In this document: one piece after another, positions 3,641 through 55,187 of the stretch
How positions within the stretch are numbered: position 1 is the stretch's first letter
Layout of the letters: every line of letters begins with the position of its first letter
Source of the DNA: Gallionella sp.
Lineage (GTDB): Bacteria > Pseudomonadota > Gammaproteobacteria > Burkholderiales > Gallionellaceae
Assembly (NCBI GenBank): GCA_028699065.1
Contig: JAQVVH010000004.1
Span: 1,589-65,588 of the forward strand
Reading direction: 5' to 3'
Length of the DNA stretch: 64,000 bases
Notes under the pieces: model-generated
Databases searched by the model: none
What the model saw: only the letters and a program-made list of their open reading frames with translations
What the model was told of the DNA's origin: nothing
Position numbers and translations under genes: made by a program

Positions 3641-5716
3641 TCATTTGCACTCCGCATACGTCACGCCGATGCCCCCCTCAGCAGAGAGCGGCAGCCCTGT
3701 TGCCCATGTAGGGGTGGTGGCAAGAACACTGTTCATGTACTGAAGCGCCACGTCAGCCGCGTTCTCCTCGACGACGCATACGATTTCATCGTGTGTCATC
3801 AGGACTACCGGCAGTTCTTTGGCAACCTCAATCATTTGTTCTCCGACAATGATGCGATGCAGGCACTGAATAATATTTTCCGTGGCAAGCGATCCGTAGA
3901 TTTTGGTACGCGAACGGCCATCCCAATAGGTAGCCGTTCCATCCTCTGACCGCTCAATCCCATGATAGTTCAATTTGAGGTTGTTCGGCATGAGGATATG
4001 ATCTTTCCCAGTGCGCATGATGCCGTGCGCGCCGAACACCATCTCCCTGCCCTCGATCATAGCAGTGATGACGTCCTCCATCATCTGCCAGCAGCCTTTC
4101 TGCCCCGGCGGTAGGCCCACCCCGGTGATCTGCGGGTACCGCTTGCGATACCGATCAACCAGTGCCTTGGTGACGCAGCAGTGGATCAGGCGGTCGTTGA
4201 GGTTCAGCCGGCTGGGCATCTCGGCCACGCGCTGCACATGCTTCGGGTTGTTCAGGAACGGGGAAGGGTCGACTTGCAAGGACTCCATGTCCGCTACCGT
4301 GAAGATGATCGGCTTGGCACCCAGCGCGCCTTTCAGGAATTCCGTGGCGGCCTTGAACCACCCACTGCCAAAGCCGAACGAAAGAATTCCGACTTTCCCG
4401 ACGTGGCCAGGAATCTTGTCGGCGGGGTTTTTCTTGCGATCAATGGGCCTGCCATACACTGTGCTTGCATGCTCGCTATACACGTCGCGCCCTTGTGCGA
4501 ACGCTTCAACCAAGTCATGCTGATTGGCAACCCATGCAAGCAAGCGCGCCTCGCCCTGCGCGCTGTCTGAACACACGATCCGATACCCGTCCGGTGCGTA
4601 GATCGACTGTTTGAGCACCGCGAGTTCTGGGCGGTTCGCATTGGCGTTGCTCATATTCTGGAAATTCGTGGCATCTCCGCCCGACCACCTGAATGTATGA
4701 GCGCCGCCATAGTTGAGGTACACGCAGAGCGGCCCACGCGAGGCCATGTCGGCGAACCGTTGCGCCCGCGTCTCGACGATCCCTGACCTGATGCTCACCC
4801 GAGCTTCGGCGAGCGCGCGGATCACATCATCTGGGTCTTCGAGCATTTCCTGCATCGCTGGATCTGTGCGCGCGAAGGCGAATATCTGCTCGCCCGTTGT
4901 GGGTGAGGGCTTCGTCTTCGGCTCGACGCCGATGGAACGCAGGATCGCAGCAAACTTGTCACTGGAGTTGAAGGGCTTCTTGTTGATGCCAAGACCATCG
5001 CACGCCTTGCATGGCGACACGCCATTGAACATATCCGGGGCTTGCCCACTGCCCCCGCATACCTTGCACTCGTAGCCCAGTTCAGTGAGCAAGTCACGCT
5101 TGCGCTTCTGCTCAGTGGTGACGGCCCCGCGCAGTTGCGCTTCGTTGCCCAGCAGCTTGGGCTCCGTAAACATGCGCACAGTGAGGTCAACCAGTTTCAA
5201 TTCATCCGCCGGCATCTGTTCCAAGAATATCTGCGCCAGGTCGTAGGTGCGCTCACAGTCGTTGACGCAGTACGCGCCGTACTCCGCGCGTTCTGCGGCG
5301 GTAAAGTCCGCAGCGCGCTTATTTTTTGCGAACGTGACGTAGTTCCCTTTGCGGCCGATGCCGTGGCGGATGCACAGTTCTTCGAGTGAGTTCCCGGCTT
5401 TCGGGCCGTCGAGGATGCGCGCCATGCTCAGGGTGTCAATGTGCATGGCAGGCCGGATGCCGTGATGGTGTGCGAGAATCAGCCCGTCGAAGTGGCTGTG
5501 GTGGCAGATCAGCGCCGTTTCCGACCAATTCACCTCTCGTTGCAAGAAAGTCGCGGCGCGATCTGGCATGATCCAGAATGCTGGGGTGTCGTTAACCTTG
5601 ACGCCGAGCAGGATCTCTTCGAAGCGCGGGTCGCGGACGTAGGCCTCTGTGGTCATCTTGGAGAGCGAGAATTCCTGGGAGTAAAAAGTTTCCCAGTCGA
5701 GAACGAGGGTGTCCAT
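3641..5716 (-). CDS. polA: Family A DNA polymerase with 3'-5' exonuclease domain
   Basis: LDWET ExoI, HHSHFDG ExoII, YCVND ExoIII, motif A DSAQGEAR, motif B KVGILSFGFG, motif C THDE; start at MDTLVLD (TGATG overlap). Confidence 0.95.
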   Translation of the reverse strand: MDTLVLDWETFYSQEFSLSKMTTEAYVRDPRFEEILLGVKVNDTPAFWIMPDRAATFLQREVNWSETALICHHSHFDGLILAHHHGIRPAMHIDTLSMARILDGPKAGNSLEELCIRHGIGRKGNYVTFAKNKRAADFTAAERAEYGAYCVNDCERTYDLAQIFLEQMPADELKLVDLTVRMFTEPKLLGNEAQLRGAVTTEQKRKRDLLTELGYECKVCGGSGQAPDMFNGVSPCKACDGLGINKKPFNSSDKFAAILRSIGVEPKTKPSPTTGEQIFAFARTDPAMQEMLEDPDDVIRALAEARVSIRSGIVETRAQRFADMASRGPLCVYLNYGGAHTFRWSGGDATNFQNMSNANANRPELAVLKQSIYAPDGYRIVCSDSAQGEARLLAWVANQHDLVEAFAQGRDVYSEHASTVYGRPIDRKKNPADKIPGHVGKVGILSFGFGSGWFKAATEFLKGALGAKPIIFTVADMESLQVDPSPFLNNPKHVQRVAEMPSRLNLNDRLIHCCVTKALVDRYRKRYPQITGVGLPPGQKGCWQMMEDVITAMIEGREMVFGAHGIMRTGKDHILMPNNLKLNYHGIERSEDGTATYWDGRSRTKIYGSLATENIIQCLHRIIVGEQMIEVAKELPVVLMTHDEIVCVVEENAADVALQYMNSVLATTPTWATGLPLSAEGGIGVTYAECK

Positions 5717-6069
5717 CAGGCGGGTTTCCAGTGAGTAGGCTTGCACTCGACCGAGAACCCGCAGGTCCACCATGTATTGCTGTATGCCGGGCATCCGTTC
5801 GGAGAGTGTGGCGTCTTGAGCAGTATCTTCTCGCGCCCCGTTGTCGGGGCTGTTGCGATCGGGAGCCAGCGATCAACCTCCGCGCATGCAATCGCTTTAT
5901 GAACTCGCCGCACTGTGCCCTCGGGCAGCCCCGTAGCGCGCAGGAACGTCACCACGGATTCATGATCCTCGCTCGCGCCGTCGCCTTCGAGTAGCCCCTT
6001 GATCTGCTCGTTGACGAGCCACAGGGGATGGTCGTCGTCCAGCCACCCTTCAAGTTTTGCTGTGGACAT
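5716..6069 (-). CDS. Hypothetical protein with DUF551-like C-terminus
   Basis: WLPIATAP...PTHWKP pattern; coupled to flanking genes. Confidence 0.55.
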   Translation of the reverse strand: MSTAKLEGWLDDDHPLWLVNEQIKGLLEGDGASEDHESVVTFLRATGLPEGTVRRVHKAIACAEVDRWLPIATAPTTGREKILLKTPHSPNGCPAYSNTWWTCGFSVECKPTHWKPA

Positions 6070-6071
6070 AT

Positions 6072-6506
6072 CTAACCCCCCAGCACCAGAACAGTCACAG
6101 GCCCGCCGGTGCCGGGGTCGATCTTGCTGGCAATCTCAACGGCGCGCTTCGGTGTCTTTCCGCACAGCATGGCAGCCATGGCGGGTCCGCCGCCGGTGCC
6201 GATGGCGTGAAAGTCGCGCTCGATCTTGTTCGCTATCCAGTCGTCCTCGAAGAAGAACAGCCCATCATGGGTCAGCAACAGGGCCTGGAACTCGTCGGGA
6301 TCCTTGAGTTCGTCGCGGTCGTTGATATCCATGCCGGTCTCGACCCATGCGATGAACTTCGCGCAGTCGACGCTTGACCCGGCGGCACCGACGAGGCCGT
6401 TGCAGGTCGTGAATATCTTCTTCGATGGGAACGACGTATCCCCGAAGTTGACCTGCGTGTCGGCAGCCATCTCGCCGTGCTGACGTGAGGCTACGATGGT
6501 GGTCAT
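6072..6506 (-). CDS. Proteasome-beta/HslV-like Ntn hydrolase (paralog 1)
   Basis: N-terminal MTTIV, AADTQ, SKKIF, GAAGS, AIGTGG line up with HslV T1/D17/K33/G47/S124 motifs; ATGA overlap at 6506. Confidence 0.7.
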   Translation of the reverse strand: MTTIVASRQHGEMAADTQVNFGDTSFPSKKIFTTCNGLVGAAGSSVDCAKFIAWVETGMDINDRDELKDPDEFQALLLTHDGLFFFEDDWIANKIERDFHAIGTGGGPAMAAMLCGKTPKRAVEIASKIDPGTGGPVTVLVLGG

Positions 6507-7117
6507 GCCATGCTCGCCCGGTAGAGGTAGTCCCACTTGAACACCCGGCCGACGTGCTCCGACGCCTCCAGACTGATCTTTGGCACCGGGTTCGGGGCCG
6601 TTTCGTTGTGGCGTTCAAGCGTAATGTCGAGCATCACTGCCAGTTTATGCAGGTCTTCGTACCGCCATATCTCGGTGCCGAGGTCCGGGCGCAGCGTCAG
6701 CCACTGGCTCTTCACGTTCTCCGGGATCGGGTGCCGCACACAGAACTGCGGCCAGAACCGCCCCAGCCCGGCGGAATCGTAGGGGCTCGTGAACACCTCC
6801 TTGTTGCGCAGTATCCACTCGTCGAATGGGCGATCTACGCTGTCCCGCTGCGCCTTCGTGTAGGCGTGCTCGTAGCGCCCGTGGTCGAGTCCGAACCTGC
6901 GAAGGAACTTATACAGGCTCCACAAACGATCGAGTGGGTTGCGAACGACGCCGAGTTTTTGCCAGCGGTCATACCCCTGCGGTACCCCGTCTGCCTCCAT
7001 GTGACGGTACACTTGCATTGCTTGGGGATACCGCGCCAGTATCGCGCGGCGCAATGCCCCGCTTCCGGTACGTGGAACGAGGAGGACTACCTTCTCGATT
7101 TCGGGGATCAGGATCAT
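6503..7117 (-). CDS. Sulfotransferase family 2-like protein
   Basis: 5'-PSB-like VPRTGSG and 3'-PB-like VRNPLDRLWSLY motifs. Confidence 0.65.
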   Translation of the reverse strand: MILIPEIEKVVLLVPRTGSGALRRAILARYPQAMQVYRHMEADGVPQGYDRWQKLGVVRNPLDRLWSLYKFLRRFGLDHGRYEHAYTKAQRDSVDRPFDEWILRNKEVFTSPYDSAGLGRFWPQFCVRHPIPENVKSQWLTLRPDLGTEIWRYEDLHKLAVMLDITLERHNETAPNPVPKISLEASEHVGRVFKWDYLYRASMA

Positions 7118-7470
7118 AAGTCCGCCGGGTCCAAGTGGACGATCGGGATGCCATGTTTCAGTGCGAACTTGATCTCCTGCTCGACGCCGTAGCTACGGTG
7201 CCACTGGTGGAGATGAAGCACGATCAGTTTGTCGGCCTTCTCCAACAGCGCGAAGTCCTGCGTCAGCCAGAACTGGTGGTTGCACCGCAGATCCGCCGGT
7301 AGATAGGCGGCGACGGGGTGCGAATGCGCGATCGGGCAGAAGATGTTCTCACCGCGGGCCATCAACTTCGCCGCCGCATGCACGGCCTCGGCGAACCGCT
7401 GCTCGCAGTACAGCCGGTCATCGGGGTTGTCGGGGTTGGTGTAGGGAGACGCGAGGTAGGAGTAGCTCAT
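7114..7470 (-). CDS. DUF1937 / nucleoside deoxyribosyltransferase-like protein
   Basis: YLASPY, FCPIAHSH, SYGVEQEI..A...GIPI motifs; start at ATG 7470. Confidence 0.75.
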   Translation of the reverse strand: MSYSYLASPYTNPDNPDDRLYCEQRFAEAVHAAAKLMARGENIFCPIAHSHPVAAYLPADLRCNHQFWLTQDFALLEKADKLIVLHLHQWHRSYGVEQEIKFALKHGIPIVHLDPADL

Positions 7471-7901
7471 AACCCGTGCCTCGCCAGCCTGGCCGCGATG
7501 TCTTCCCGCGTCTCGCCGGCGTCGAACATGTCGACCATAACTTTCCACAGGCTGACATGGATCTCGCGGCGATACTTGGTCTGCAGCGGAACAATACGCG
7601 GGATCAGGCGGTCGCGCTCCAGTTCTTCGGCGAGCCGGGGCCAGCAGCGAACGGACTGTCCGATGTGCGGCCACATCTGGTGGAGTTCGCGGAGCATGAA
7701 GACCGCCAGTTGCTCGGGGGTATAGCCGAATACCCGCGCCCAGAACGCTGCGACTGCGCTGTCAGGGAGTTGCCCCAGCACGGCGGCGCCCAGAACGTCG
7801 GACGCCGTAACCAGACCGCCGCCGGCAACGAAGTACCCCTTGATCGCCTCGCCGGGGGCGCGATCGACGCCGCGCAGGACGGCAGAACTGAGGGGGATCA
7901 C
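7467..7901 (-). CDS. Hypothetical protein
   Basis: GTG start overlapping the upstream stop (GTGA); stop overlaps the next ATG. Confidence 0.55.
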   Translation of the reverse strand: MIPLSSAVLRGVDRAPGEAIKGYFVAGGGLVTASDVLGAAVLGQLPDSAVAAFWARVFGYTPEQLAVFMLRELHQMWPHIGQSVRCWPRLAEELERDRLIPRIVPLQTKYRREIHVSLWKVMVDMFDAGETREDIAARLARHGL

Positions 7902-14995: not shown

Positions 14996-15024
14996 TTGAC
15001 AAGTCCCCCCTACGGTGCTATGAT
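14996..15024 (+). promoter_or_regulatory. Strong sigma70-like rightward promoter
   Basis: TTGACA-17 bp-TATGAT with extended -10 TG; AGGAGA RBS downstream. Confidence 0.8.
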
Positions 15025-15043
15025 GTAATTTTAGGAGATAAAA

Positions 15044-15625
15044 ATGCGCTACCAAAACGACCTCACCGGAAAAATTTTCGGGTTCCTGACAGCAGTGTGT
15101 CAAGCGCCCCCAACCGCCGGAAACCGAGGCCTAAAGTGGGTATGCAGATGTGAGTGCGGCGGCGAGGCTGTAGTGCGCAACGACCGGCTCGTATCAGGCA
15201 AGACGCGCTCCTGCGGGTGCCTGCAGCGGGCGCTGGCGCGATTGCCGCCTGCGGAGCGCACGGCGGTCGGGAAGCTGGGCAAGCAGCTCCAGGCTAAGAT
15301 CAATGAAGAAAATCCGAGGCTTCGCACGTTCTATGTGCCCAAGGTGGGGGCCGATATGTACCACGCGCTGCCACACGGGACATATCAACGCCTGTTAGAC
15401 GAGCAGCAGGGAGTGTGCGCAGTATGTCAGCGCACGCCAGAGGTAGCCGGGAAGCTGCACCTCGACCATGATCACGCCACCGAGCAGGTACGCGGTCTGC
15501 TATGTAGCGGGTGTAATACTGGGCTCGGCTTGTTCAGGGAAGACCCTGCTGCGCTGCGCCGTGCTGCTGAATATCTGGCCCTTGTGCGAGTGCCACTATT
15601 ACGCGGGGTAAGGAAATTGACATAG
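15044..15625 (+). CDS. Endonuclease VII-family nuclease with N-terminal Cys-rich DNA-binding module
   Basis: QQGVCAVC...LHLDHDH..EQVRGLLCSGCNTGLG..REDP..L.RA.EYL. Confidence 0.85.
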   Translation: MRYQNDLTGKIFGFLTAVCQAPPTAGNRGLKWVCRCECGGEAVVRNDRLVSGKTRSCGCLQRALARLPPAERTAVGKLGKQLQAKINEENPRLRTFYVPKVGADMYHALPHGTYQRLLDEQQGVCAVCQRTPEVAGKLHLDHDHATEQVRGLLCSGCNTGLGLFREDPAALRRAAEYLALVRVPLLRGVRKLT

Positions 15626-15659
15626 AAGCGAAGGATAAGGCTGTCAATCTCTTAACTGC

Positions 15660-15688
15660 TTGACAGCGCCGCCGTTCCATGCCATACT
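15660..15688 (+). promoter_or_regulatory. Sigma70-like promoter
   Basis: TTGACA-17 bp-CATACT with extended -10 TG. Confidence 0.7.
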
Positions 15689-17574: not shown

Positions 17575-17760
17575 ATGCCATGGACCCCAAAGCAGTTCCA
17601 GCAGCGGCATAACAAGAAACTCTCCCTCCCGCAGGCCAAGGCCGCTGCCGCGCAAGCGACTGCCATGATCAAGGCCGGTGTACCGGAAGGCGAAGCCATC
17701 GCGACCGCTAACAAACACGCCAAGGGGTTCGGCGCCATGGTGGGGAGGAAGAAACCATGA
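17575..17760 (+). CDS. Small protein resembling DUF2188/YdaT
   Basis: MPWT...A.A..KAG.PEGEAIATA..HAK pattern. Confidence 0.4.
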   Translation: MPWTPKQFQQRHNKKLSLPQAKAAAAQATAMIKAGVPEGEAIATANKHAKGFGAMVGRKKP

Positions 17761-18185
17761 CAGTCGTCGCCTACGACGGGCACAGCCTCGCGGCCGACAA
17801 GCAGTCGGTCTGCGGCGGCAGGTGCTCTACCACGACCAAGATCCGCAGGCTAGCTACCGGCGAGGTAGCAGCGATAACCGGCATGCAGGCGATGGGCGAG
17901 ATGCTGGTGCAATGGTATGAGGCCGGCGCCGACCCGGCAGCGTGGCCTATACCTGACAACGACGAGAACGACTGCGTCCGCCTGATCGTTGCCGACAAGG
18001 ACGGATGCAAGTTCTACGAGCATGCGATGCCCATCGCGGTCGAGGATGCGTTCGGCGCGTGGGGGTCAGGCGCGGACTTCGCGGTCATGGCGATGCACCT
18101 TGGCAAGTCGGCTCGCGAGGCGGTCGATCTGACGAGCCTGTACGCAGTCGGCTGTGGCAACGGCGTGGATTCCTTCGACCTATGA
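17757..18185 (+). CDS. Proteasome-beta/HslV-like Ntn hydrolase (paralog 2)
   Basis: MTVVAY..AADKQ, TTKIRRL, AWGSGADFA..AM..GKSAREAV motifs. Confidence 0.65.
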   Translation: MTVVAYDGHSLAADKQSVCGGRCSTTTKIRRLATGEVAAITGMQAMGEMLVQWYEAGADPAAWPIPDNDENDCVRLIVADKDGCKFYEHAMPIAVEDAFGAWGSGADFAVMAMHLGKSAREAVDLTSLYAVGCGNGVDSFDL

Positions 18186-18436
18186 ACGCCCGCGTAATCA
18201 TCCACCCACGCTGCCTCAACGGCCCGGCCGCCGGCGCCCTGGAAGCTGTACTCCAGGCCAAGGGGTTCCAGCCCGGCGAACTTGCCATCGGCCCGGCCAA
18301 CACGAAGGGGCACTGCGACCTCGTGCGGCTGATCGACAACGAGAATGGGGTTCTGACGCTGGAGCGGATGGACGGTCACCGGTTCCAGCACCGCGGGCGC
18401 AACGTCGAACTTGATCCGACACCGGAGGTCGCATGA
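18182..18436 (+). CDS. Hypothetical protein
   Basis: ATGA overlaps; start at MNARVIIHP. Confidence 0.5.
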   Translation: MNARVIIHPRCLNGPAAGALEAVLQAKGFQPGELAIGPANTKGHCDLVRLIDNENGVLTLERMDGHRFQHRGRNVELDPTPEVA

Positions 18437-18720
18437 ACCTGCGTACATGCAACCGTTGCGGATGGGTTCACATGGGCGTAACGCGACAGTTCGCGGAGGA
18501 CGCCGTTGCCGAGTTCAACACATACTTCGCGGCGCAGGTACTGAGCGTCCGCGAGATGTTCGGCAACAAACCGGCGGGCATCCACGAGTACGAGCGGTGC
18601 AACCGCTGTGGCGGCCCCCACACCGACATGCGCGACTTCACGGCGGGCGACTGCCCTGACGGCTGCACGATTGGGCCGATTATTGTGGAACTTCCTGACG
18701 CGCCGAAGGTCAACTCATAA
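18433..18720 (+). CDS. Zinc-finger protein
   Basis: Two CNRCG motifs plus DCPDGC. Confidence 0.6.
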   Translation: MNLRTCNRCGWVHMGVTRQFAEDAVAEFNTYFAAQVLSVREMFGNKPAGIHEYERCNRCGGPHTDMRDFTAGDCPDGCTIGPIIVELPDAPKVNS

Positions 18721-19442
18721 TGGAGAATCAATCCGGCATCTACGAGATCGTCAATACCGTGAACGGGAAGCGGTATATTGGGTCGGCAGTTGATCTTCGT
18801 GCGCGGTGGTGGAAGCACTGCAAGCAGCTCAAGAAGGGGGACCACCACAGCCCCAAACTACAAGCCGCGTGGAACAAGCATGGCCGCGCGGCGTTCAAGT
18901 TCCTACCCATACTGACCTGCCAGAAAAGTATGCTCCTGTTCTATGAACAGCAATTGCTCGATAAGGTGAAGCCCGAGTACAACATTGCGCTGAACGCTAC
19001 TGCTCCTATGTTGGGGCGGAAAGCCTCGGATGAAACTCGTAAGAAAATGTCGGAAGCGCAGAAAGCGCGGGTACGCGATCCGGGGACGGGGGCGAAGATT
19101 TCTGCAGCGCTTAAAGGAAATACTAATGCAAAGGGGCGCGTCCCGACAGAGGCACACCGCGCCGCGCTGTCAAAAGCAAACATGGGCAACCCGGGCACGC
19201 CAGGCAACAAGAACGGGCTTGGATATCGGCATACACAGGAAGCGAGAGAAGCGATACGCGCAGCAAGTACCGGCCGCGTCATGTCAAAAGAAGTCCGTGC
19301 AAAAATAGCGGCTGCCCAGAAGGGCAATACGCACGGCGCAGGGCGTAAATTAACGCAGGAGCATATTGACAAATTAACTGCCGCGCGCCAGCCGTATTAC
19401 GAGGCGAAGCGAGCACTCCGGCGCAAGAAGGACCAAGCATAA
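18720..19442 (+). CDS. GIY-YIG homing endonuclease with NUMOD3 repeats
   Basis: GIYEI...KRYIGSA; HS/T.E.R.K.S.A repeats; lower GC. Confidence 0.9.
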   Translation: MENQSGIYEIVNTVNGKRYIGSAVDLRARWWKHCKQLKKGDHHSPKLQAAWNKHGRAAFKFLPILTCQKSMLLFYEQQLLDKVKPEYNIALNATAPMLGRKASDETRKKMSEAQKARVRDPGTGAKISAALKGNTNAKGRVPTEAHRAALSKANMGNPGTPGNKNGLGYRHTQEAREAIRAASTGRVMSKEVRAKIAAAQKGNTHGAGRKLTQEHIDKLTAARQPYYEAKRALRRKKDQA

Positions 19443-20899
19443 TGGATTTGTCAGCAGAGTTCCCGAAGACTGTGTCAGATTATATGATGTCTGATAGCAG
19501 GCATCGTTTTATCCTCGGCCCGTTCGGCTCCGGCAAGTCCGTCGGTAGTCAGTGGGAGATCCCGCGCCGCGCGAGCATGCAGCGCCCGTCGACGATAGAC
19601 GGCAAGCGCAAGACGCGGTTTGCCGTCGTCCGGAACACGATGCCGCAGCTCCGCGACACGACCATGAAGACGTTCTTCGACTGGTTCCCGAACGGCACGC
19701 TTGGCAACTACAAGGAAACCGGCAAGACCTACTACATCAAGCAAGGTGACATCGAGTGCGAGGTCATCTTCCGTGCCCTGGACGACGCCGCCGACGTTAA
19801 GAACCTGCTGTCGCTCGAACTCACCGGCGCCTACGTGAATGAGTTCCGCGACATCCATCGCGACATCATCGAGGCGCTGGACGGCCGCGTCGGCCGGTAC
19901 CCGCGGATGAATGAAGGCGGCCCGTCATGGGTGGGCATCTGGGGCGACTCGAACATGCCCGAGGAGCAGACGTACTGGTGGGCCATGGCCGAAGGCATGA
20001 AGCCCGACGACATGAAAGTCAAGCAGCCGAACGACTGGGAGTTCTTCGTCCAGCCCGCCGGCGCGATACGGCTGCTCGACGGCACCTACACCGAGAACCC
20101 CGCCGCGGAGAACCGCGAGAACCTGCCGCCTGGCTACTACACCAACCTGATCACTGGCAAGACGGATGAATACATCCGCACCTACGTCATGTGCGAGTAC
20201 GGCCGGTCGAAGGGCGGCAAGCCTGTCCACCCCATGTTCAACCGCGACGTGCACGTGGCGAAGTCAGTCCTGATCCCGAATAAGCAGCTTCTATTACTGA
20301 TCGGTGCTGACTTCGGGCGTACCCCAGCCATGGTACTGAAACAACAGGACGCATTCGGGCGAGTGCTCACACTTGACAACATATCCACCTTCGGGATGGC
20401 CATCGAGACAGCGATAGAGACGAAGCTGCTACCGCTGCTGCGGCAGAAGTACGACGGATTTGACATTGCTGTGACTGGGGATCCGAGTGGCAACGCTGGC
20501 GGACAGGCTGAGGAGGCCAGTTGCGCTGACATATTCCGAAGGTATAGACGCAAGGGCATCAGCAAAGTGAAATTAGCATGGAGCAACAGCCCAGTTCACA
20601 GACAGGGGGCGACTGACCACTTCCTATCCATGCTTGTGCAGCGGGGGATGCCTGCATACCTCATTGACCCGAACTGCACGGACCTTATACGTGCGCTCGG
20701 TGGGGGGTACCAATTCAAGAAGACAAAAGACGGACGGAACTCAGAAGATGTCGATAAAAATGACGATTCACACCTCGGCGAAGCGAACGAATATGCCGAT
20801 ATGTGGTTTCATCGCGGCGAACGGACAAAAGCCGACCTGAAAGAACGCGGTACAACCCCAACTCCACCGAATGTCAATCCATACGCGACGCCGCGTTGA
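19442..20899 (+). CDS. terL: Terminase large subunit
   Basis: Walker A GPFGSGKS, AVVRNT, Walker B LELTGAYVNE, nuclease DFG and SH.GEA..Y motifs; upstream of portal. Confidence 0.92.
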   Translation: MDLSAEFPKTVSDYMMSDSRHRFILGPFGSGKSVGSQWEIPRRASMQRPSTIDGKRKTRFAVVRNTMPQLRDTTMKTFFDWFPNGTLGNYKETGKTYYIKQGDIECEVIFRALDDAADVKNLLSLELTGAYVNEFRDIHRDIIEALDGRVGRYPRMNEGGPSWVGIWGDSNMPEEQTYWWAMAEGMKPDDMKVKQPNDWEFFVQPAGAIRLLDGTYTENPAAENRENLPPGYYTNLITGKTDEYIRTYVMCEYGRSKGGKPVHPMFNRDVHVAKSVLIPNKQLLLLIGADFGRTPAMVLKQQDAFGRVLTLDNISTFGMAIETAIETKLLPLLRQKYDGFDIAVTGDPSGNAGGQAEEASCADIFRRYRRKGISKVKLAWSNSPVHRQGATDHFLSMLVQRGMPAYLIDPNCTDLIRALGGGYQFKKTKDGRNSEDVDKNDDSHLGEANEYADMWFHRGERTKADLKERGTTPTPPNVNPYATPR

Positions 20900-38432: not shown

Positions 38433-41400
38433 ATGGCTGATCCGCTCGACCTGCTGGCCGGAGATGCTGGCCTCGACGTAACACAACCGGTAGCGGGAGC
38501 TGACCTCCTCGCTGACCCCAACGCGCCCGGCCCCTTCGCGCGTGGCGTGAAGTCCGGCGTCGCCGGCGTCAAGGGGTCACTCTATGGCATGGGCGCCCTC
38601 GCCGCACGCGGCGCCGCGAACGTGCTGCCGGCGGCCGCTGCCCCCGTCGCCACAGGTCTCGAACAGGCGGCACTGGAGAACGTCGCTGCGCAGAACGAGA
38701 TCGCCTCACAGGGCGCCATGTCGTTCGAGGATGTCGTCGCCGACCCGTCGCGTGCCGGTGAATACTTCAAGTTCCTGCTGGGCAACGCCGTGCCATCGCT
38801 CGCTGCCATGGCAACTGGCGGTGGCATCGGTGCCGGCATCGGCGCGCTGGCGGCTCGCGGCAGCGCGGCAGCCCTCACCGCGCGAGCGCTGGGTGCCGTC
38901 GCCCCCGCCGTTCGCACCGGCGCCCTCGTTGGCGCCGTCGCCCCTGACTTCGCACTGGAAGCCGGCAGCATCTACCCCGAAGCCCTCAAGACGGGCGTGG
39001 AGAACCCCGCCCTGCGCTCCGTCGCCGGCGGCGCAGCAGCCGCAGCACTTGACTTCATCCCCCTGCTGGCGGCCGAGAAGTATCTCAAACCCATCGGTGC
39101 CGGCGGCATCGGCGCGCTGGCCAAGGGCGCACTCAAGGGTGCTCCCGTCGGCGCTGCATTGGAAGGCACCCAAGAGGCGCTGCAGTCCGTTGTCGAACGC
39201 GGGGCTGCCGGTAACTCGCTGACCGATCCGGCGGCCGTCAGCGACTACATCAACTCATTCGCCGGCGGCGCAGCGCCTGGTGCCATGTTTGGTGCCGGCA
39301 TCGGTGCCCGCCGTCAATCTGTGGCACCGGCAGCAGTCCCGCCTGTAGCAGAAACTGCTCCAATCGTTCCAGATTCCGGCATGATCGTACCCGATTCGGG
39401 AACGCCTGCGCCAGCGAGTATCACTCCCGAAGCCCTGCATGCCGACCTCACAGCGCAGCACGCCGCCGCGACGCAGCAGGTCACGGATCACACTGCCCTG
39501 CTCGGAACCCTCCAGCAGGCGCAGGCAGAGGGCGAAGCGAAGATCAAAGCACTGGCAGCCGAGGCCAAGCTGCCGCCCGGTGAGCGCCGTATCAAGAGCG
39601 AGATCCTCGCCGAGAAGAAAGACATGGCCGCCCAGGTCAAGGAAGTCAAGGCCAAGATCGAGGAAGTCGGTGGCCAGTTGAACGCCGCGCGCACCACGAT
39701 TGGCACCCTGACCCCCCAACTCGAAGCCGCGCGGCAGGCGTTGCCGCCCGCGCCCCTACCCGAAGGCACGGTACCCGACCTAGTCCAGCCCGAGATCACC
39801 CCCCGCGCCGCGCCGGTGGTATCCGACATCATCGCCGACCCGAACCTGCCGCCGCCAACCCCCGCCGAGCAGACCGACCGCGCCGTGAAGGGTGTCCACG
39901 CCCTGTTCCGCGAGCAGGGCATGCCGCTGACCACAACCGAGGAGAGCCTCGCTACGCCGCCGCAGACCCCTCGTGAGGTCGCGCTGGCCAAGGTTGAGCA
40001 ACGCCAGCCCCGCGAGTCCGTACCGCAGGCCAGCCCTGCCCAGATGCAGGCCATCGAGGCCAACGCCATGTCGGTGATCGAGCCGCTGGCCAAGACGATG
40101 GCGGCAACCAAGACGAAGACGCCCGAGGCGCAGGCCAAGGTCGCGGCCAAGCTGGCCAAGGCAATGCGCGGCGTGGTGCAGGAGGCCGCCAAGCAGGGGT
40201 CAATCGAAGCCGCGCAGCAGTACGTTACCGACAAGTTACCCAACGCTCTGAAGGGCCACGGCGTAACTGCCGACGCCACCGACATGGCCAAGGCCGTGAA
40301 CGCCGGCGTCGGGCTGGCGCGGACGCTGTACTCGAAGGGGGCGACTAAGCCAGCTACGGAGGTATCAAAAGAACAACTAGGAGCCGCGTTCGGATACTTT
40401 GACCCCAGCACAGGGAATACATATGTGCGCGAGGATTTACCGCCAGCAGTGAAGCGGTTCGTCTCCGCGCACGAGGCGCACCATGCCACGCAAGATCCGG
40501 AGTTCATGAAGAAACACCCCGCGCTGGCTGAGATAGCGGCATCGGTGTTCCCTGGATTCAAAGACCCCATTGGGCTGATGGCGACAATGAAGGCGTCGCT
40601 GACTCCTGAACGGCTGAAATTCTATTTGGATCGGGTTCGCGGTGAACAGAACTCCCGCGCCGCCCTAACGCAAGACGAGTTCGACGCCCTGCCCGAACCC
40701 GCGCAGTTCGCCGCCGTCGACGCCTACAACCGCGTCATGCGCGCCAAGGGTACCGCGCTCCGGCAGCGCATGGCCCAGCTCATCGGTGACCGGCCAGAAC
40801 TCAAGATCATGACGTTCTCGGCGACGCCCGACAGCCCGATCGGTTCCTACACTCGCACCGGCCCACTGAAGGCTGCCATCTCTATGGCGCTGAACGCCAA
40901 GGAAGGCCTGAGCGTCGCCGACCACGAGGGCTACCACTTCGCTGAGGACTGGCTACTCACCCCCGGTGAGCGTCGCGTCGCCGCCAACGCACTGAAGGCC
41001 GGCAAGCCGCTCTACACCCAACTGGTCGCCCGGCTCCAGCAGTACGACCGCGAGAACGGCACCAGCCTAACCGACGAAGTCACAGCGATCCCGGCAGAAG
41101 CGCGGGCCTACGCCTTCGAGTTCTGGCGGCGTGGCGAGTTCAAGGCTGACGGCGCACTGGCGAAGGCCTGGCAGAAGATCAAGACGTTCTTCGAGAGGAT
41201 TGTCAACGCCGTCAACGGTTTGGGTTTCCAATCGATCGAGGACGTGTTCGTCGCGCTGGATCGCGGTCAGATGGCGGAGCGGGAGATGGTGGCGGGCGAC
41301 GGTGGTGCGTTTCAGTCGGTGGCCGGCGGGCAGTCATGGTACCGCTCCGCACTGACCGAAGCCGTCGCCGGCATCCAGAGCCGGCAGGCCACCGCGCAGG

Positions 41401-44400
41401 GCTGGAAGGATCAGATCAAGGGGCTGATCGCCAACGGCAAGGCGAAGCAGGTCGAACTCGACGCCGTGGGGCTGAACGAGTGGCTGGACCTCCAGCAGGG
41501 GAAGGTCACCAAGGATCAGGTGATGGCGTTCCTCGGTGAGAACGGCGTCCAGGTTCGCGAGACAATCCTGGGCAGCGCGATGCCGCAGGCGCGGCAGGAC
41601 GAGTATCAGCAGCGACTGCGAGACATCGAGGACATGCGCGACCTCGGTGGGCGGATATCTCACGACGAAGCCCGACGGCAGATCGACGCCCTGCAGCAGG
41701 AGTTCAAGGTTGGCGAGTATGGCGACCCCTTCGACAGTACCAAGTTCGCCGCCTACCAACTGCCGGGCGGCGAGAACTACCGCGAGTTGCTGCTGACATT
41801 GCCGGCGAAACAAGCTACGCAGTTCTTCATCGCGTACAAAGGCGACTCCACCATGGGTACAGGGTTCGCTACTAGGCAGGAGGCCGAAGCGGAACTGGCG
41901 GACACCTTCCCCGGCCGCAATGATCTGGAAGTCCGTGAGGGCACGGGGGATCGCAGCACGACGACGCGCACGCCTGAGAACTTCCGCTCCTCCCACTTCG
42001 ACCAGCCCAACATCCTCGCCCACATCCGCTTCAACGAGCGCACCGGCGCCGAAGGCAAGCGTGTGCTGTTCATCGAGGAGATTCAGAGCGACTGGGCGCA
42101 GAAAGGGCGGAAGGAGGGGTTCGCCAGCGCCGCGAAGCCGCTCAAGGATATAACTACAGAAGAACTGCGCGGCATACTGGCATCGCTGCCGCAGCCGACT
42201 GCACAAGAACGTGCGGAGAACTACGCTTCCGACTACGAGGCCTCGGCGGACGCTATTTTTGAACTGATCACTGCGAACCGTACTGGCGAACTGGAGGGAT
42301 ATGATCGCATAGATAGGACTTCCATTTTGCGCGATGTTCTGGTTGGCGATCATAACTGGACCGAGCAGGCAGCGAACACTCTTCAGCAGAAACTGGACGG
42401 CTACGGCGCCATCCGTGCGGGCACCCCCTCCGCCCCCTTCGTCACCAAAACCGAAGCCTGGACAGCCCTCGCCCTCAAGCGGATGATCCGCTACGCCGCC
42501 GAGAACGGCTTCGACTCGATCGCCTGGACAACGGGTGAACAACAGGCGGCGCGGTACGACTTGAGTAAGCAGGTCGACCACGTCGCGCACTACAAAGATG
42601 GCAGCGGGCATCTGCGAGTCGCTGTTCAGGGAATGAATGGCGAGGAGGTGTGGAACGCCTACGACCCCACACCGAAAGAACTTGAAGATACACTTGGCAA
42701 AGAGATAGCAGGGAAGATCGCGAACGACGAGGGTGCCGACTCAGGTGCGGGGGTCAAGATTCTTCGCGGGCTCGACCTCAAAGTCGGCGGCGAAGGCATG
42801 AAGGGCTACTACGACAAGATCGTGGTAGGCGTGGCCAACGACATCCTCAAGAAGCTGGGCGGCGGGAAGGTGGGGGAGGTCACGATCAACCAAGACCACG
42901 ACGCCAGCCAGAACACCGAGAAGGAGTGGGACGAAGGCGTAGCGCGCTGGCACCTGAAGCGCGGCGGTGAGATTTATGTCGTCGATAAGAACGGCATGGA
43001 AACGCGCATCAAGAACGAACTCACCCTGAACGCCGAACTCGATGAGAACGGGGCGCCGCGTGGGTACGTTCTGGGCGACACACAGGGTAGCAGCACCCAA
43101 CCCGGCTTCACCATCACCCCCCGCCTCGCCGAGAACGCTGCCAACGGCCTGCCGCTGTTCTCCAAGGCTGCCGTCGCCAAGGCCAACCGCATGGCTGCCG
43201 GCGAGCTGGAAGCCATGCAGTCCGGCGAGCAGTACGCGCACCTGATCGAGAACGCGAATCTATCCAATGATCTGTTCACGCGGGCCTTCGGCGTCGTCAA
43301 GGAAGACATCGTCGGCGGCCTCGGCCGGTGGTGGACGAACACCATGTCCACGCCGAACTACATCAGCGCGGCGTCGGCGGGCTTCAAGAACGTCTATCAG
43401 GCATTCAACACGTATAGCCGCTACCGCAAGATACTCGCCGAGCAACTGGTGCGCGAGCGGCTGCCGAGTTGGTATCAGGCGTCCGATGCCGACCGCAAGG
43501 CCGCCTTCGATGTCATGCTCAAACGCACCGTCGGCAAGTTCTCAACGAACTCACTGGAACTGGCTGACCTGCTGCGCACCCTGACCCCTCAACAGCGCAC
43601 GCTGTACGACCAGGCGACGGGAATGATCGCCGGCGTCCTGCAGCGCCAGTTCGAAAGCCAGAAGGTAGAGCGCCAGCGCCAGCTCACCAGCCCCGGTGCC
43701 TACGACAAGTGGCTCGCCCACCGGCAGGAACAGATGGCCAGCCTGCTCGACACCGGCTACGTGCCACTGCGCCGCTACGGCGACTACAGCGTGTCGGTGT
43801 ACATGGAGGCGCCCGACGGCTCGCGCGTGCAGGCCGGGCTGGAATTCTTCGCGTCACCCAGCGCGGCCAAGGCGGCATCCATCGCCTACGCCCGCGAGAT
43901 CGAACGCTCCGGCGTCGCCCTGAAAGTCGAGATGGGCCGCCGCAGCAAGAACGAACGCGATACCGGCGTGTCGCTGGAACAGTTCCTCGGCACCCTGCGT
44001 CGGCAGGGCGTCGATATCTCGCAGGCCGAACGCGAGCGGCTGGTCGTCGCCATGACCAACGCCGACTCGCTGGTGCGCACCCAGATGATGCGCCGCGAAG
44101 GCCTGGCCGGGTACTCGACCGACGGCATGCGTGTCCTGCATGAGTTCGGCGTCAACACGACGAGCGAGATCGCCTACGCGCGCTTCGCGCCGGTGCTGGA
44201 CGCCGCGCTGGACGGCGCCGAGGTCACGGCGGACGTCAACTCGGTGACGAGCGAGCCCGTCATCCAGATCGGTGAGGCATTCGGTCGCCGCGAGGACGGC
44301 GTCGAGAACAACCTGTGGAAGCGCGACGGCCCCATGTCCGGTTTCTATAAGGACCGCGCCAACGCCATGGCTGACACCACGCTGTCGCCCGACCGGCAGA

Positions 44401-53051: not shown

Positions 53052-55187
53052 TCATTCTACCGCAGATCGGATGCGGGCGAGGGCGATGTCGAAGTAGCCG
53101 TGTTCCTCGTCTGAGTCGATCCCCACAAACCCGAAGCCCTCCTTGAGCGCAGCCTTGCCAGTCGAGCCTGAGCCCATGAAGGGGTCGAGGACCGTGCCGC
53201 CTGGCGGCGTGACGAGGCGGCAGAGGTAGCGCATGAGTTCGGTCGGCTTCACGGTGGGGTGGTTATTCTTGACCTCGCGGGCCTTGTTGAACGCGCCGCC
53301 CTCTGCCGCGACAGTGTTGCCCCGCGCCGCCTCGGCTGCGGCTTGGCATGATCGTGCCAGAATCTTGTTGGGCTCCGCGTCCATCCCCTCGTTCCGATCC
53401 TTCTTACTTGTCTTGGCGCAGTAAAAGAACCGCGCGGCGCTGCCCGAACCCGAGTCGTGCGGCGTCCGTGGCCCGCCGAAGTATTCGCTCTTGCCCGTGC
53501 CGACGGCGCCGTCGCCATACCCTGTGATCTTGACCTGTGGCAGCGACCCACCTGACCCGTTGCTGTCGGGGAACAGGGCGAGCACCTCGTCGCTGCCGTC
53601 GTGGCAGAAATTTGCCGGCCATCTACCCTTGCTGCTGTCGAAGTCGGCGTCGGTACTCGGCTCGCCGAAGGTACTGCCTTGGGTCCGCTGCGCGGTGGCG
53701 AGCCCATACTCCGTGCGTTCGCGGCCCTCGACCCTGCACCCGTCAATATTGATCGCCCCCGTGCCATGCTGCTGCACGTTCGCTGCCACCGTACCAATCA
53801 GAGGCTTGCGGGCTACGATGACGGGCTCGAAGGCAGGTTTGAGTGCGGTACCCCAGCCTTCCCACTGCTTCGCGGCTTCGGTTGCTGGGGCGGTTAAGTC
53901 CGCTGACGTGCCTGCGAATTTACCGAGTGAAGTCGCGTCGTTCTTTGGGGTTTGTTGTGCGGCGCGGGGGTTGATGCCTACCGCCTCCCGCTCCACCCCC
54001 GCCGCCTTGTCGATCGCCTTGCTCACATCCAGCGACTTCGGAAACCCGGAGTTGCCAGTGAGAAACACCTTCCCGTTCCGGCGGGCGACGAACGCGCCGG
54101 TGCTGACGGTAGGGCAGAAGATCAGGCCAGTGTATTCGATGGGGGTAACAGTTGCCAGAGTGGTTTGATAGCTTGGCCGTGTTCGTACCGCTTGTGGCCT
54201 GCGTTCGACGCAAACAGCATCAGGTTCTCCAGCCGGTTGTCCGTCGCGTCGTGGTTGATGTGATGTACACACTCGCTGCGCGACAGCGGTCGCCCCATCT
54301 CCATCGCCACAATCAGGCGATGCTCCATGACGTAGCCATCCTTGCGGGCCATGTCCATGAACGCTACAGGACAACGAACGTACTTGATGGACTGGTTCGC
54401 GTACTTGCCCTTCCGTTTGAAGTAGGTCAGCCCGCCCTTCCATGCCGGGTTCTTCGGGCCAGCCATCCCCTTGCCGGGGCACTTCTTGCCCCTGCCGTTC
54501 GCCGAGTGCAGTTTCAGCCAGTCCTTCGCCTTGCCGCTGCACTTCCTCGAACAGTAGCGCCCCACGTCCTTGCGATAGTGCAGAAAGATCGCCTTGCAAA
54601 TACGGCACGTACTCCACGCCAGCGCATTCTTCTGCCGCCACGAATGCAAGGATTCCGCTTCGTTCAACAAGGCAACGATGGTTTCGACTGACGATCTGGT
54701 CCGTCGTATCTGACTCAATGTGATAGGCGGTATCTTGCTCGACACGATATTCAGACCACCGCTCGGGGTTCTCCCATTGGTAAACGTCGGTTTGAGGATC
54801 ATACGCCAGAATCTCCTTTGTTCTGGCTACATGGTAGCGTTCCCACCCATCTCTTGTCAACATCTCGGTGTCCTCGCTCAGGCACCCATACACCCACATG
54901 ATCGTGTCGCGGATCTCCCACCCGGCGTCCTCAATCGCTACCATCAGCCGGTGGAACGTGCGGGTGCCGCCGAACGCCAGAAGGTGAGCGCCTGGCTTGG
55001 CAACGCGCAGCGCCTCGACCCAGAACTCCTTGCCCGGCACGCCGTGGTCCCACCCTTTGCTCATGAAGTTCAAGCCGTATGGCGGGTCGGTCACGACGGC
55101 GTCGACGCTGTCAGCATCCATGGCACGCATGGCGTCGCGGCAGTCGGCGTTGATCAACAGCGCGGGTCCGGCTTCTTCGATTCTCAC
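53052..55187 (-). CDS. N4-cytosine/N6-adenine DNA methyltransferase (beta class) containing an intein
   Basis: TDPPYG, HPTVKP, LDPFMGSGSTG; extein junction WVYG/SGFPKS. Confidence 0.92.
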   Translation of the reverse strand: MRIEEAGPALLINADCRDAMRAMDADSVDAVVTDPPYGLNFMSKGWDHGVPGKEFWVEALRVAKPGAHLLAFGGTRTFHRLMVAIEDAGWEIRDTIMWVYGCLSEDTEMLTRDGWERYHVARTKEILAYDPQTDVYQWENPERWSEYRVEQDTAYHIESDTTDQIVSRNHRCLVERSGILAFVAAEECAGVEYVPYLQGDLSALSQGRGALLFEEVQRQGEGLAETALGERQGQEVPRQGDGWPEEPGMEGRADLLQTEGQVREPVHQVRSLSCSVHGHGPQGWLRHGASPDCGDGDGATAVAQRVCTSHQPRRDGQPAGEPDAVCVERRPQAVRTRPSYQTTLATVTPIEYTGLIFCPTVSTGAFVARRNGKVFLTGNSGFPKSLDVSKAIDKAAGVEREAVGINPRAAQQTPKNDATSLGKFAGTSADLTAPATEAAKQWEGWGTALKPAFEPVIVARKPLIGTVAANVQQHGTGAINIDGCRVEGRERTEYGLATAQRTQGSTFGEPSTDADFDSSKGRWPANFCHDGSDEVLALFPDSNGSGGSLPQVKITGYGDGAVGTGKSEYFGGPRTPHDSGSGSAARFFYCAKTSKKDRNEGMDAEPNKILARSCQAAAEAARGNTVAAEGGAFNKAREVKNNHPTVKPTELMRYLCRLVTPPGGTVLDPFMGSGSTGKAALKEGFGFVGIDSDEEHGYFDIALARIRSAVE
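54051..54884 (-). mobile_element. Intein (278 aa) in the methyltransferase
   Basis: C1 CLSEDTEMLT..GW, block B SRNHRC, terminal FCPTV...LTGN followed by Ser. Confidence 0.92.
54122..54802 (-). CDS. HNH endonuclease nested out of frame inside the intein
   Basis: CRIC..YCSRKC, KNPAWKGG, YVMEHR..MGRPL..E.VHHINH...DNRLENL; AAGGAG 10 nt before ATG 54802; true start uncertain. Confidence 0.85.
   Translation of the reverse strand: MILKPTFTNGRTPSGGLNIVSSKIPPITLSQIRRTRSSVETIVALLNEAESLHSWRQKNALAWSTCRICKAIFLHYRKDVGRYCSRKCSGKAKDWLKLHSANGRGKKCPGKGMAGPKNPAWKGGLTYFKRKGKYANQSIKYVRCPVAFMDMARKDGYVMEHRLIVAMEMGRPLSRSECVHHINHDATDNRLENLMLFASNAGHKRYEHGQAIKPLWQLLPPSNTLA

What the first reader, a model, noticed from the sequence alone, without database searches (positions are those of the whole stretch)
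6072..6506. Proteasome/HslV-like Ntn hydrolase in the replication operon, with a second paralog in the late block
Seen in sequence: 6072-6506 and 17757-18185 both begin with Met-Thr and keep the HslV-like D, K and G(S/T)G motifs. No HslU-type ATPase is recognisable in the window. Established: Thr1 Ntn hydrolases are proteasome/HslV proteases or related isopeptide-acting enzymes. Inference: two copies in different expression classes could act ATP-independently, for example degrading host factors or reversing protein conjugation by ubiquitin-like antiphage systems.
Basis: partly seen in the sequence, partly recalled or inferred. Interest (0 to 1): 0.62.

Follow-up and report, generated by a model that had tools for sequence, protein, structure and literature searches.

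The report
Two phage mini-proteasome (PPH) genes
A complete 65.7-kb phage genome carries two distantly related genes for stripped-down proteasome/HslV-type threonine peptidases; both look real and active, but they belong to a phage family (PPH) described in 2021 whose function is untested, and close relatives of this phage carry only one of the two.

Summary
Gene A (6072-6506, minus strand, 144 aa) and gene B (17757-18185, plus strand, 142 aa) both start Met-Thr. Both keep the Thr/Asp/Lys/Gly and G-[ST]-G catalytic set, which is near-invariant in 151 homologs. Both give confident AlphaFold models (pLDDT about 95) whose best PDB matches are HslV, BPH and 20S beta subunits.

They are not HslV: they score 17 bits or less against cut-offs of 137-158, they lack helix H2, and no HslU or HslV exists in the phage or the co-assembled genome. 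[quoted passage not shown] 2021; phrog_1040). This scan has met that family many times on other DNA.

New here: A and B are 31% identical and come from separate PPH subclades, so they are not a recent duplication. Both are optional cargo. One close relative has B only, with a weak SprT-like ORF at A's slot. In another relative, the half of the record I hold has A and no B. Both genes are under purifying selection (dN/dS 0.06-0.12).

Action without an ATPase is plausible but untested. The proposed anti-ubiquitin-like or anti-CBASS role has no support. This is a new member of a known kind, of modest interest.

The parts
6072..6506 (-). PPH-A: 144-aa stand-alone proteasome-like Thr1 peptidase (T2, D16, K30, G43, G103-T-G105)
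   Evidence: AF2 pLDDT 94.7. dN/dS 0.06 against the 94.6%-identical copy in L057.
17757..18185 (+). PPH-B: 142-aa stand-alone proteasome-like Thr1 peptidase (T2, D14, K28, G42, G103-S-G105)
   Evidence: AF2 pLDDT 95.5. dN/dS 0.12 against the 85%-identical copy in L013.
5795..7113 (-). Variable cassette between the deoxyribosyltransferase-like gene and DNA polymerase. It holds o204 (6503-7117, weak sulfotransferase-like), PPH-A and o117 (5716-6069, which overlaps the annotated polymerase start).
   Evidence: tblastx against relative G001 jumps from window 7104 to 5735 across only about 320 bp of G001. In L057 the slot holds PPH-A plus a GIY-YIG homolog, without o204 or o117. Pfam on o204: Sulfotransfer_1 E 0.028.
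3641..5794 (-). DNA polymerase A (context, replication operon). The true start is probably the internal Met near 5716, as in the relative.
   Evidence: phrog_17 E 1e-56. The G001 homolog starts MDTLVLDWETF.
7114..7674 (-). Nucleoside 2-deoxyribosyltransferase / DUF1937-like gene (context). Homologs are 118 aa, so the true start is probably internal.
   Evidence: phrog_355 E 2.2e-12. PF09152 is recorded on the homolog in L057.
17575..17760 (+). 61-aa ORF overlapping the start of PPH-B by ATGA. It is not conserved in relatives, so it is not a fixed partner.
18182..18436 (+). 84-aa ORF overlapping the stop of PPH-B by ATGA. It is conserved in relatives with and without PPH-B.
   Evidence: 92% identical in L062, which lacks B; 75% in L013, which has B.
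18720..19442 (+). GIY-YIG homing endonuclease inserted just before the terminase gene
   Evidence: phrog_314 E 1.6e-34. Absent at this site in both relatives. A 41% homolog lies next to PPH-A in L057.
19442..20899 (+). Terminase large subunit (context)
   Evidence: phrog_2 E 3.1e-23
14996..15688 (+). Two sigma-70-like promoter matches (14996-15024, 11 of 12 with TG; 15660-15688, 10 of 12 with TG) upstream of the operon that holds PPH-B
   Evidence: consensus matches only

Best explanation
[quoted passage not shown] These are about 140-residue, propeptide-free, helix-H2-less relatives of HslV and the proteasome beta subunit.

Shown here: the fold; the conserved Thr/Asp/Lys/Gly/G-[ST]-G active site; purifying selection; and that each gene is optional cargo at its own gene-flux site. 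Among close relatives of this phage, one whole record carries B only, and the held half of another carries A and no B. So each enzyme works alone and neither is needed for replication or virion assembly.

Inferred:
- The host methionine aminopeptidase removes Met1 and exposes Thr as the N-terminal nucleophile, as in HslV.
- The enzyme works without an HslU-type unfoldase, because the apical helix H2 is deleted and neither the phage nor the co-assembled genome encodes HslU.
- It therefore cleaves peptides or unfolded, loosely structured proteins rather than folded ones, probably as a small homo-oligomer.
- Its biological role is accessory, such as host takeover, phage-host conflict or proteome remodelling. 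The substrate is unknown.
For: Family and fold: phrog_1040 E 2.8e-32 and 1.4e-24. Profile against PDB: HslV 4e-12, BPH 4e-9, beta5 about 1e-6. AF2 pLDDT 94.7 and 95.5, with H1 present, no H2, H3/H4 present and no C-terminal extension. Foldseek top hits are HslV, BPH and 20S beta and phage 'proteasome subunit beta' / 'Ntn hydrolase' proteins. The PPH definition comes from PMC8665760.

Active site in 151 homologs: Met then T (120) or S (28); D 151/151; K 150/151; G 149/151; both glycines of G-[ST]-G 150/151, middle residue S/T in 139.

Not HslV: 17 bits against cut-offs of 137 and 158. No HslU or HslV in the 99.94%-complete assembly.

Accessory status: the whole G001 record has B only. The k127_240166 phage has A only in the 30 kb held, and other genes sit in B's syntenic slot. 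A 78%-identical A homolog sits after a holin in an unrelated contig that carries integrases.

Selection: dN/dS 0.06, 0.17 and 0.12. A-type and B-type homologs form separate clades, support 99.
Against: No biochemical datum exists for any PPH; I found none in the paper library. The oligomeric state could not be predicted with the tools at hand. That the co-assembled 1.96-Mb genome is the host is only an assumption: there is no sequence link between C8 and the other contigs, and GC is 61% against about 56%. Only about 30 of 64 kb of the A-only relative was readable, so a B copy elsewhere in it is not excluded. Loss of H2 does not prove independence from every unfoldase.
Confidence: 0.78

Rival explanations
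1. The proteins are protease cores that dock onto a host AAA+ unfoldase (HslU, or another such as ClpX), either re-targeting it to chosen substrates or titrating it away from phage proteins.
For: HslV is the closest solved relative, and many database records name these proteins 'ATP-dependent protease'. The co-assembled genome encodes a ClpX-like 416-aa protein.
Against: Helix H2 lies on the apical face where HslU docks in HslV (my own knowledge of the HslUV structures). It is deleted in both models and in PPH generally (PMC8665760). No HslU is found in the phage or the assembly, and the host's family mostly lacks HslV-like genes. ClpX is only known to partner ClpP, which has a different fold.
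Confidence: 0.08
2. They are sequence-specific processing enzymes or transpeptidases, like connectase, rather than degradative peptidases. They would act as monomers or dimers on one defined phage or host protein.
For: Connectase is the precedent for a proteasome homolog that lost apical helices and became a specific ligase (PMC8665760). PPH has lost one of the two helices. Fuchs et al. note that several new homologs may not form rings.
Against: [quoted passage not shown] H1 is retained. I found no conserved neighbouring gene that could be a fixed substrate.
Confidence: 0.08
3. One reading: the enzymes reverse protein conjugation by ubiquitin-like antiphage systems (Bil, type II CBASS) or degrade defence proteins.
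For: The patchy, accessory distribution at hot spots and horizontal spread between unrelated phages are typical of counter-defence genes.
Against: I know of no isopeptidase in the proteasome-like family. The co-assembled genome has no SMODS cyclase and no Prok-JAB above cut-off. PPH also occurs in a plainly chromosomal, non-defence context in Acetobacteraceae. No literature links PPH to defence.
Confidence: 0.05
4. PPH-A is a replication-associated protease that removes proteins trapped on DNA. It would fill the same role as the SprT-like ORF that occupies the same slot in relative G001.
For: In G001, A's slot between the deoxyribosyltransferase-like gene and DNA polymerase holds a 117-aa ORF with an HEMIH motif and a weak SprT-like hit (E 1.8e-4). 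A is translationally coupled within the replication operon.
Against: The SprT hit is below Pfam's cut-off (21.8 against 25.6 bits). There is only one case of positional replacement, and it is at a hot spot that also takes homing endonucleases. A's 78% homolog sits after a holin, not near replication genes. A has no DNA-binding domain.
Confidence: 0.05
5. PPH-B is the capsid maturation (prohead) protease, given its place upstream of the terminase, portal and capsid genes.
For: No prohead protease was recognised among the head genes. B lies about 1.3 kb upstream of TerL. The phiM5 homolog abuts the terminase gene.
Against: The relative k127_240166 has a 97%-identical major capsid protein and a 93%-identical portal but no B at that position. 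The B clade also sits far from head genes in other phages and in bacterial chromosomes.
Confidence: 0.02

Closest known systems
[quoted passage not shown] 2021, Bioinformatics; PMC8665760); equals PHROG phrog_1040 'peptidase HslV family'
   Same: About 140 residues. No propeptide (Met-Thr start). Proteasome-like beta-sandwich with Thr/Asp/Lys triad and oxyanion Gly. Helix H2 missing and no C-terminal S12/H5. Encoded by tailed phages of Proteobacteria-type hosts.
   Different: Nothing in the proteins themselves. What is unusual is two divergent PPH genes (31% identical, different subclades) in one lytic-type phage genome, and the one-or-both presence pattern among its close relatives.
HslV (ClpQ), the peptidase of the HslUV ATP-dependent protease
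   Same: Closest solved fold and sequence (profile E 4e-12; TM 0.7-0.8). Thr1 nucleophile exposed by Met removal. Same Asp, Lys and G-S/T-G positions.
   Different: About 30 residues shorter, with helix H2 deleted. Fails the HslV equivalog models (17 bits against 137/158). No HslU partner in the phage or the co-assembled genome.
BPH (beta-proteobacterial proteasome homolog; PDB 5ovs/5ovt/5ovu)
   Same: Stand-alone group I proteasome homolog with no known ATPase partner. Second-best structural match (Foldseek E about 1e-8).
   Different: BPH chains are 197-201 residues and keep both apical helices. It forms double heptameric rings (my own knowledge). The oligomer of PPH is unknown.
Connectase (archaeal proteasome-like protein ligase)
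   Same: A proteasome homolog that lost apical helices and acts without an ATPase.
   Different: Connectase lacks both H1 and H2 and belongs to the other sequence group. PPH keeps H1 and clusters with HslV and BPH.

Membership tests
PPH (Fuchs et al. 2021) | About 140 residues, no propeptide: the nucleophile directly follows the initiator Met | tested here: met
   144 and 142 aa. Both have ATGA-coupled Met-Thr starts. 148/151 homologs read Met-[T/S]. The best 150 library representatives are 134-217 aa, and 144 of them match from residue 1 or 2.
PPH (Fuchs et al. 2021) | Proteasome-like core with the catalytic triad Thr1/Asp17/Lys33 and oxyanion Gly47 equivalents | tested here: met
   A: T2, D16, K30, G43. 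B: T2, D14, K28, G42. These are invariant or near-invariant. Thr aligns to HslV Thr1.
PPH (Fuchs et al. 2021) | Second apical helix (H2) absent; no C-terminal S12/H5 elements | tested here: met
   AF2 models: H1 at 45-56 (A) and 44-55 (B), then only short turns before the next strand; H3 at 106-114; H4 at 119-129; the chain ends after the last strand. The profile alignment shows a 16-residue gap against HslV at this point.
PPH (Fuchs et al. 2021) | Clusters in sequence space with the PPH reference set (for example WP_042125023.1) rather than with AAH, CPH or RPC | not tested
The proxy is a strong match to phrog_1040, whose named members are the phage 'peptidase HslV family' proteins.
PPH (Fuchs et al. 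2021) | Encoded by tailed phages or prophages | tested here: met
   Contig C8 is a complete phage genome (127-bp terminal overlap) with TerL, portal, MCP and DNA polymerase.
HslV proper | Scores above the curated HslV equivalog models (NF003964, TIGR03692) | tested here: not met
   A: 17.3 and 15.9 bits against cut-offs of 137 and 157.75. B: no hit. TIGR03692 finds nothing in the whole assembly.
HslV proper | Works with an HslU AAA+ partner, usually encoded next to it | tested here: not met
   No HslU match on C8. The best hit in the assembly is a ClpX-like protein, below cut-off.
HslV proper | About 175 residues with both apical helices H1 and H2 | tested here: not met
   142-144 residues with H2 absent.
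BPH | About 200-residue subunit with both apical helices; double heptameric ring | tested here: not met
   Length and H2 are not met. The oligomer is not testable with these tools.
Pfam PF00227 Proteasome | Score above the gathering threshold (22.4 bits) | tested here: not met
   B 12.9 bits, E 0.086; A no hit. 19 of 48 B-clade homologs reach E <= 0.01. This shows superfamily-level kinship only.

The most novel reading that the evidence does not exclude
The slot next to the phage DNA polymerase is a 'protease slot' filled either by an SprT-like metalloprotease (relative G001) or by PPH-A (this phage and k127_240166). PPH-A would then clear proteins trapped on replicating DNA. That would be a phage-scale parallel to the eukaryotic use of both SPRTN and the proteasome on DNA-protein crosslinks, and it would give the first function for a PPH. 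PPH-B, in a different operon, would then serve a different substrate set.
Probability: 0.06. Interest if true: 0.7.

Novelty: new member of a known kind. Interest (0 to 1): 0.28.

Why it matters
PPH is a large protein family with no experimental data: thousands of 50%-identity clusters match the A1 profile, which also picks up HslV and other homologs. The proteins here add nothing new in kind.

The locus does offer a clean natural experiment. There are three near-isogenic phages (capsid protein 93-97% identical): one with A plus B, one with B only, and one in whose held half only A is found. This suggests that each enzyme is self-sufficient and dispensable for replication and assembly, which argues against a prohead-protease or obligate hetero-oligomer reading and narrows the search to accessory, host-directed roles. 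It also gives ready-made genotypes for comparison if hosts are found.

The apparent absence of HslUV from the presumed host lineage makes an HslU-dependent mechanism unlikely for this pair.

Tried and rejected
1. Megablast of the region against named phages found no match. Single-sequence PDB searches gave only noise; a profile was needed.
2. The search for related loci with the mixed alignment A1 failed because it has no conserved 7-10-column stretch. A genome-contig scan with A alone found nothing.
3. Whole-record search of the ENA and JGI assembly loci was not possible. I therefore reached the second half of relative k127_240166 by looking up a neighbouring 61-aa protein.
4. I looked for a conserved small partner gene, a lead from earlier scan note e1-3513448. 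The ORFs just upstream of A and B differ between relatives, and no neighbour family is shared across 28 bacterial loci. Rejected.
5. The prohead-protease idea for B is rejected by the B-less relative.
6. Naming the host failed: the ClpX cluster carries no name.
7. phrog_1040 as a genome-wide PPH counter is not specific. It also picks up HslV in most genomes, so I drew no PPH prevalence figure from it.
8. My ungapped dN/dS for TerL is unreliable because of an indel and is not used.
9. Literature searches for any experimental work on phage HslV-like or PPH proteins found only the 2021 bioinformatics paper and genome announcements.

Full report
WHAT IS THERE

The window is almost all of contig C8 (65,804 bp) of a 10-contig, 1.96-Mb assembly. 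C8 has 61.3% GC against about 56% for the large contigs. Its two ends share an exact 127-bp repeat, the usual sign of a circularly closed assembly. It encodes DNA polymerase A, an exonuclease, a dNMP kinase, a DHH phosphoesterase, a primase/helicase, TerL, a portal, a major head protein and adaptor proteins. It is therefore a complete phage genome of about 65.7 kb. It shares no short exact matches with the rest of the assembly, so the host link rests only on co-assembly.

Gene A is 6072-6506 on the minus strand (144 aa, MTTIVASR...). Gene B is 17757-18185 on the plus strand (142 aa, MTVVAYDG...). Both start codons lie in ATGA overlaps with the preceding gene. B's stop overlaps the start of the next gene in the same way.

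IS IT AN NTN HYDROLASE?

Yes, for both genes.
- Both match phrog_1040 'peptidase HslV family' (E 2.8e-32 and 1.4e-24). Pfam's Proteasome model is only grazed.
- A and B are 31% identical (E 4e-10).
- A 29-sequence alignment has invariant T2, D16, K30, G103 and G105, and near-invariant G43.
- Its profile hits HslV structures at E 4e-12, BPH at 4e-9 and beta5 subunits at about 1e-6, with the N-terminal Thr on Thr1.
- Across 151 homologs the residue after Met is Thr (120) or Ser (28). Asp is 151/151, Lys 150/151, the oxyanion Gly 149/151, and both glycines of G-[ST]-G 150/151 with S or T between them in 139. The few exceptions are mis-called starts.
- AlphaFold models built on alignments are confident (pLDDT 94.7 and 95.5).
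- Foldseek ranks HslV, BPH and 20S beta subunits first with probability 1.0 and TM 0.7-0.8.
- In the viral structure library the model matches phage proteins named 'proteasome subunit beta' and 'Ntn hydrolase domain protein'.

WHICH FAMILY?

They are not HslV. The curated HslV equivalog models give A 17 bits against cut-offs of 137 and 158, and give B nothing. Both models lack the second apical helix (H2). The profile alignment shows a 16-residue gap against HslV at that point.

[quoted passage not shown] 2021 (PMC8665760). PPH has about 140 residues, no propeptide, no H2 and no C-terminal S12/H5. It belongs to group I with HslV and BPH and is found in tailed phages and their hosts.

I found no experimental paper on PPH. 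Named phages with homologs include the phAPEC8 group, roseophages, Xp10/OP1, Kagunavirus, phiM5 and Siara. Every listed record showed one match per query. A profile search of 1.84 billion representatives gives 14,314 clusters at E <= 1e-3 and 9,225 at E <= 1e-10 (these counts include HslV-like proteins). The best 150 are all 134-217 aa, and 144 of them match from residue 1 or 2. Earlier notes of this scan had reached the same PPH assignment on other genomes many times.

WHAT IS NEW AT THIS LOCUS?

First, A and B are not a recent duplication. A-type and B-type homologs fall on opposite sides of a branch with 99% support.

Second, both are optional within one phage lineage.
- Relative G001 (IMG/VR, 56.7 kb; TerL 92%, portal 86%, capsid 93% identical) has B at 85% identity. 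The A1 profile finds no other match in the whole record.
- tblastx shows that window 5795-7113 (o204, PPH-A, o117) corresponds to only about 320 bp in G001. That stretch holds a 117-aa ORF with an HEMIH motif and a sub-threshold SprT-like hit.
- Relative k127_240166 (ENA, 64.2 kb; capsid 97%, portal 93%, TerL 88%) has A at 94.6% identity in the same slot. There A directly follows the DUF1937/deoxyribosyltransferase-like gene and is followed by a GIY-YIG endonuclease homolog.
- At B's syntenic position, between the o205 and o84 homologs, that relative has unrelated 98-aa and 116-aa genes. An HMM scan of all six frames of the 30 kb I hold finds no second PPH.
- A 78%-identical A-type gene lies after a holin in an unrelated contig that carries integrases.

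Third, both genes are under purifying selection. dN/dS is 0.06 (A against L057), 0.17 (A against L024) and 0.12 (B against L013).

No neighbouring gene is consistently linked to either PPH.

PARTNERS AND HOST

The HslU model finds nothing on the phage contig. In the assembly (99.94% complete) it finds only a ClpX-like protein below cut-off. The HslV model finds nothing at all. A1 finds only the two phage genes. In a sample of the same order, 169 of 201 genomes have an HslV-like match. In the assembly's own family only 1 of 4 do, and in its genus 0 of 1. No SMODS (CBASS) cyclase and no Prok-JAB above cut-off are present.

HOW IT MOST LIKELY WORKS

Shown: there are two intact, selected, stand-alone Thr1 peptidase genes, each dispensable in close relatives.

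Inferred, in order:
1. Host methionine aminopeptidase removes Met1, because Thr is a permissive second residue, as in E. coli HslV (my own knowledge).
2. The free amino group of Thr1, with the Lys and Asp, forms the proteasome-type active site.
3. H2 lies on the apical face where HslU or alpha rings dock in the larger relatives. It is missing here, and no HslU is available. So the enzyme probably acts without an unfoldase on peptides or unfolded proteins. H3/H4, which form ring-ring contacts in HslV and the proteasome, are retained, so it may act as a small ring.
4. The patchy, mobile distribution points to an accessory, host-directed role.

A is co-transcribed with the replication genes. B lies in the plus-strand operon that runs into the terminase gene, behind two strong sigma-70-like promoter matches, so calling it 'late' is not justified.

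RIVALS

The rivals are an HslU- or other AAA+-dependent core, a connectase-like specific processing enzyme, an anti-Ubl/CBASS enzyme, a replication-associated (SprT-like) role for A, and a prohead protease role for B. They are weighed in their own sections. The last is essentially refuted by the B-less relative.

VERDICT

These are new members of a known, uncharacterised family. The useful extra is the natural presence/absence series (A only in the half held, B only, A+B) among near-identical phages.

Noticed in passing
L037 6001-6450 (Falsiroseomonas stagni DSM 19981), and L036, L038, L039, L041, L042, L048, L053, L054: B-type PPH homologs (33-39% identical) are present in many Acetobacteraceae genomes. 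In L037 the gene lies between pyrB (aspartate carbamoyltransferase) and an amidohydrolase (pyrC-like), with ruvX and gatB upstream. The pyrB-like neighbour is shared by five loci (L036-L039, L042). This is a non-phage setting beyond the two exceptions (Pseudoalteromonas, Mesorhizobium) named in the 2021 paper, and it hints at a cellular role for PPH.
   Followed up: partly
L026 1162-1515 (relative phage G001): At the exact slot where this phage has the PPH-A cassette, the relative has a 117-aa ORF with an HEMIH zinc-protease motif and a weak SprT-like Pfam hit (E 1.8e-4, below cut-off). So two different small protease types alternate next to the DNA polymerase gene.
   Followed up: partly
window 18720-19442; L057 10432-11130: A GIY-YIG homing endonuclease sits between o95 and the terminase gene here but is absent at that site in both relatives. 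A 41%-identical homolog lies directly downstream of PPH-A in relative k127_240166. Homing endonucleases may drive the gene flux at both PPH sites.
   Followed up: partly
contig C8 ends (window is C8:1589-65588): There is an exact 127-bp direct repeat at the two contig ends. GC is 61.3% against about 56% for the main contigs, and there is no short-match link to the rest of the assembly. This is a complete phage genome co-assembled with a 1.96-Mb bacterial genome, and the host link is unproven.
   Followed up: yes
window 38433-46967 (+): This is a 2,844-aa protein. Only its last ~320 residues match any PHROG, and those families (phrog_11358, phrog_21376) have unknown function. It is probably a giant virion or tail protein of this podovirus-like phage.
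   Followed up: no
window 6503-7117 (-): This 204-aa gene is translationally coupled to PPH-A and present only in this phage's version of the cassette. It has only sub-threshold sulfotransferase similarity (PF00685, E 0.028) and a P-loop-like PRTGSG motif.
   Followed up: partly
G000 and relatives: HslV-like genes are found in 169 of 201 sampled genomes of the assembly's order, but in only 1 of 4 genomes of its family and none of its genus. HslU is also absent from G000. The lineage seems to have lost HslUV.
   Followed up: partly
window 53052-55187 (-): This is a 711-aa protein with DNA methyltransferase matches at both ends (phrog_67, phrog_6025). It may be a fused or double methyltransferase, next to the primase/helicase gene.
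   Followed up: no
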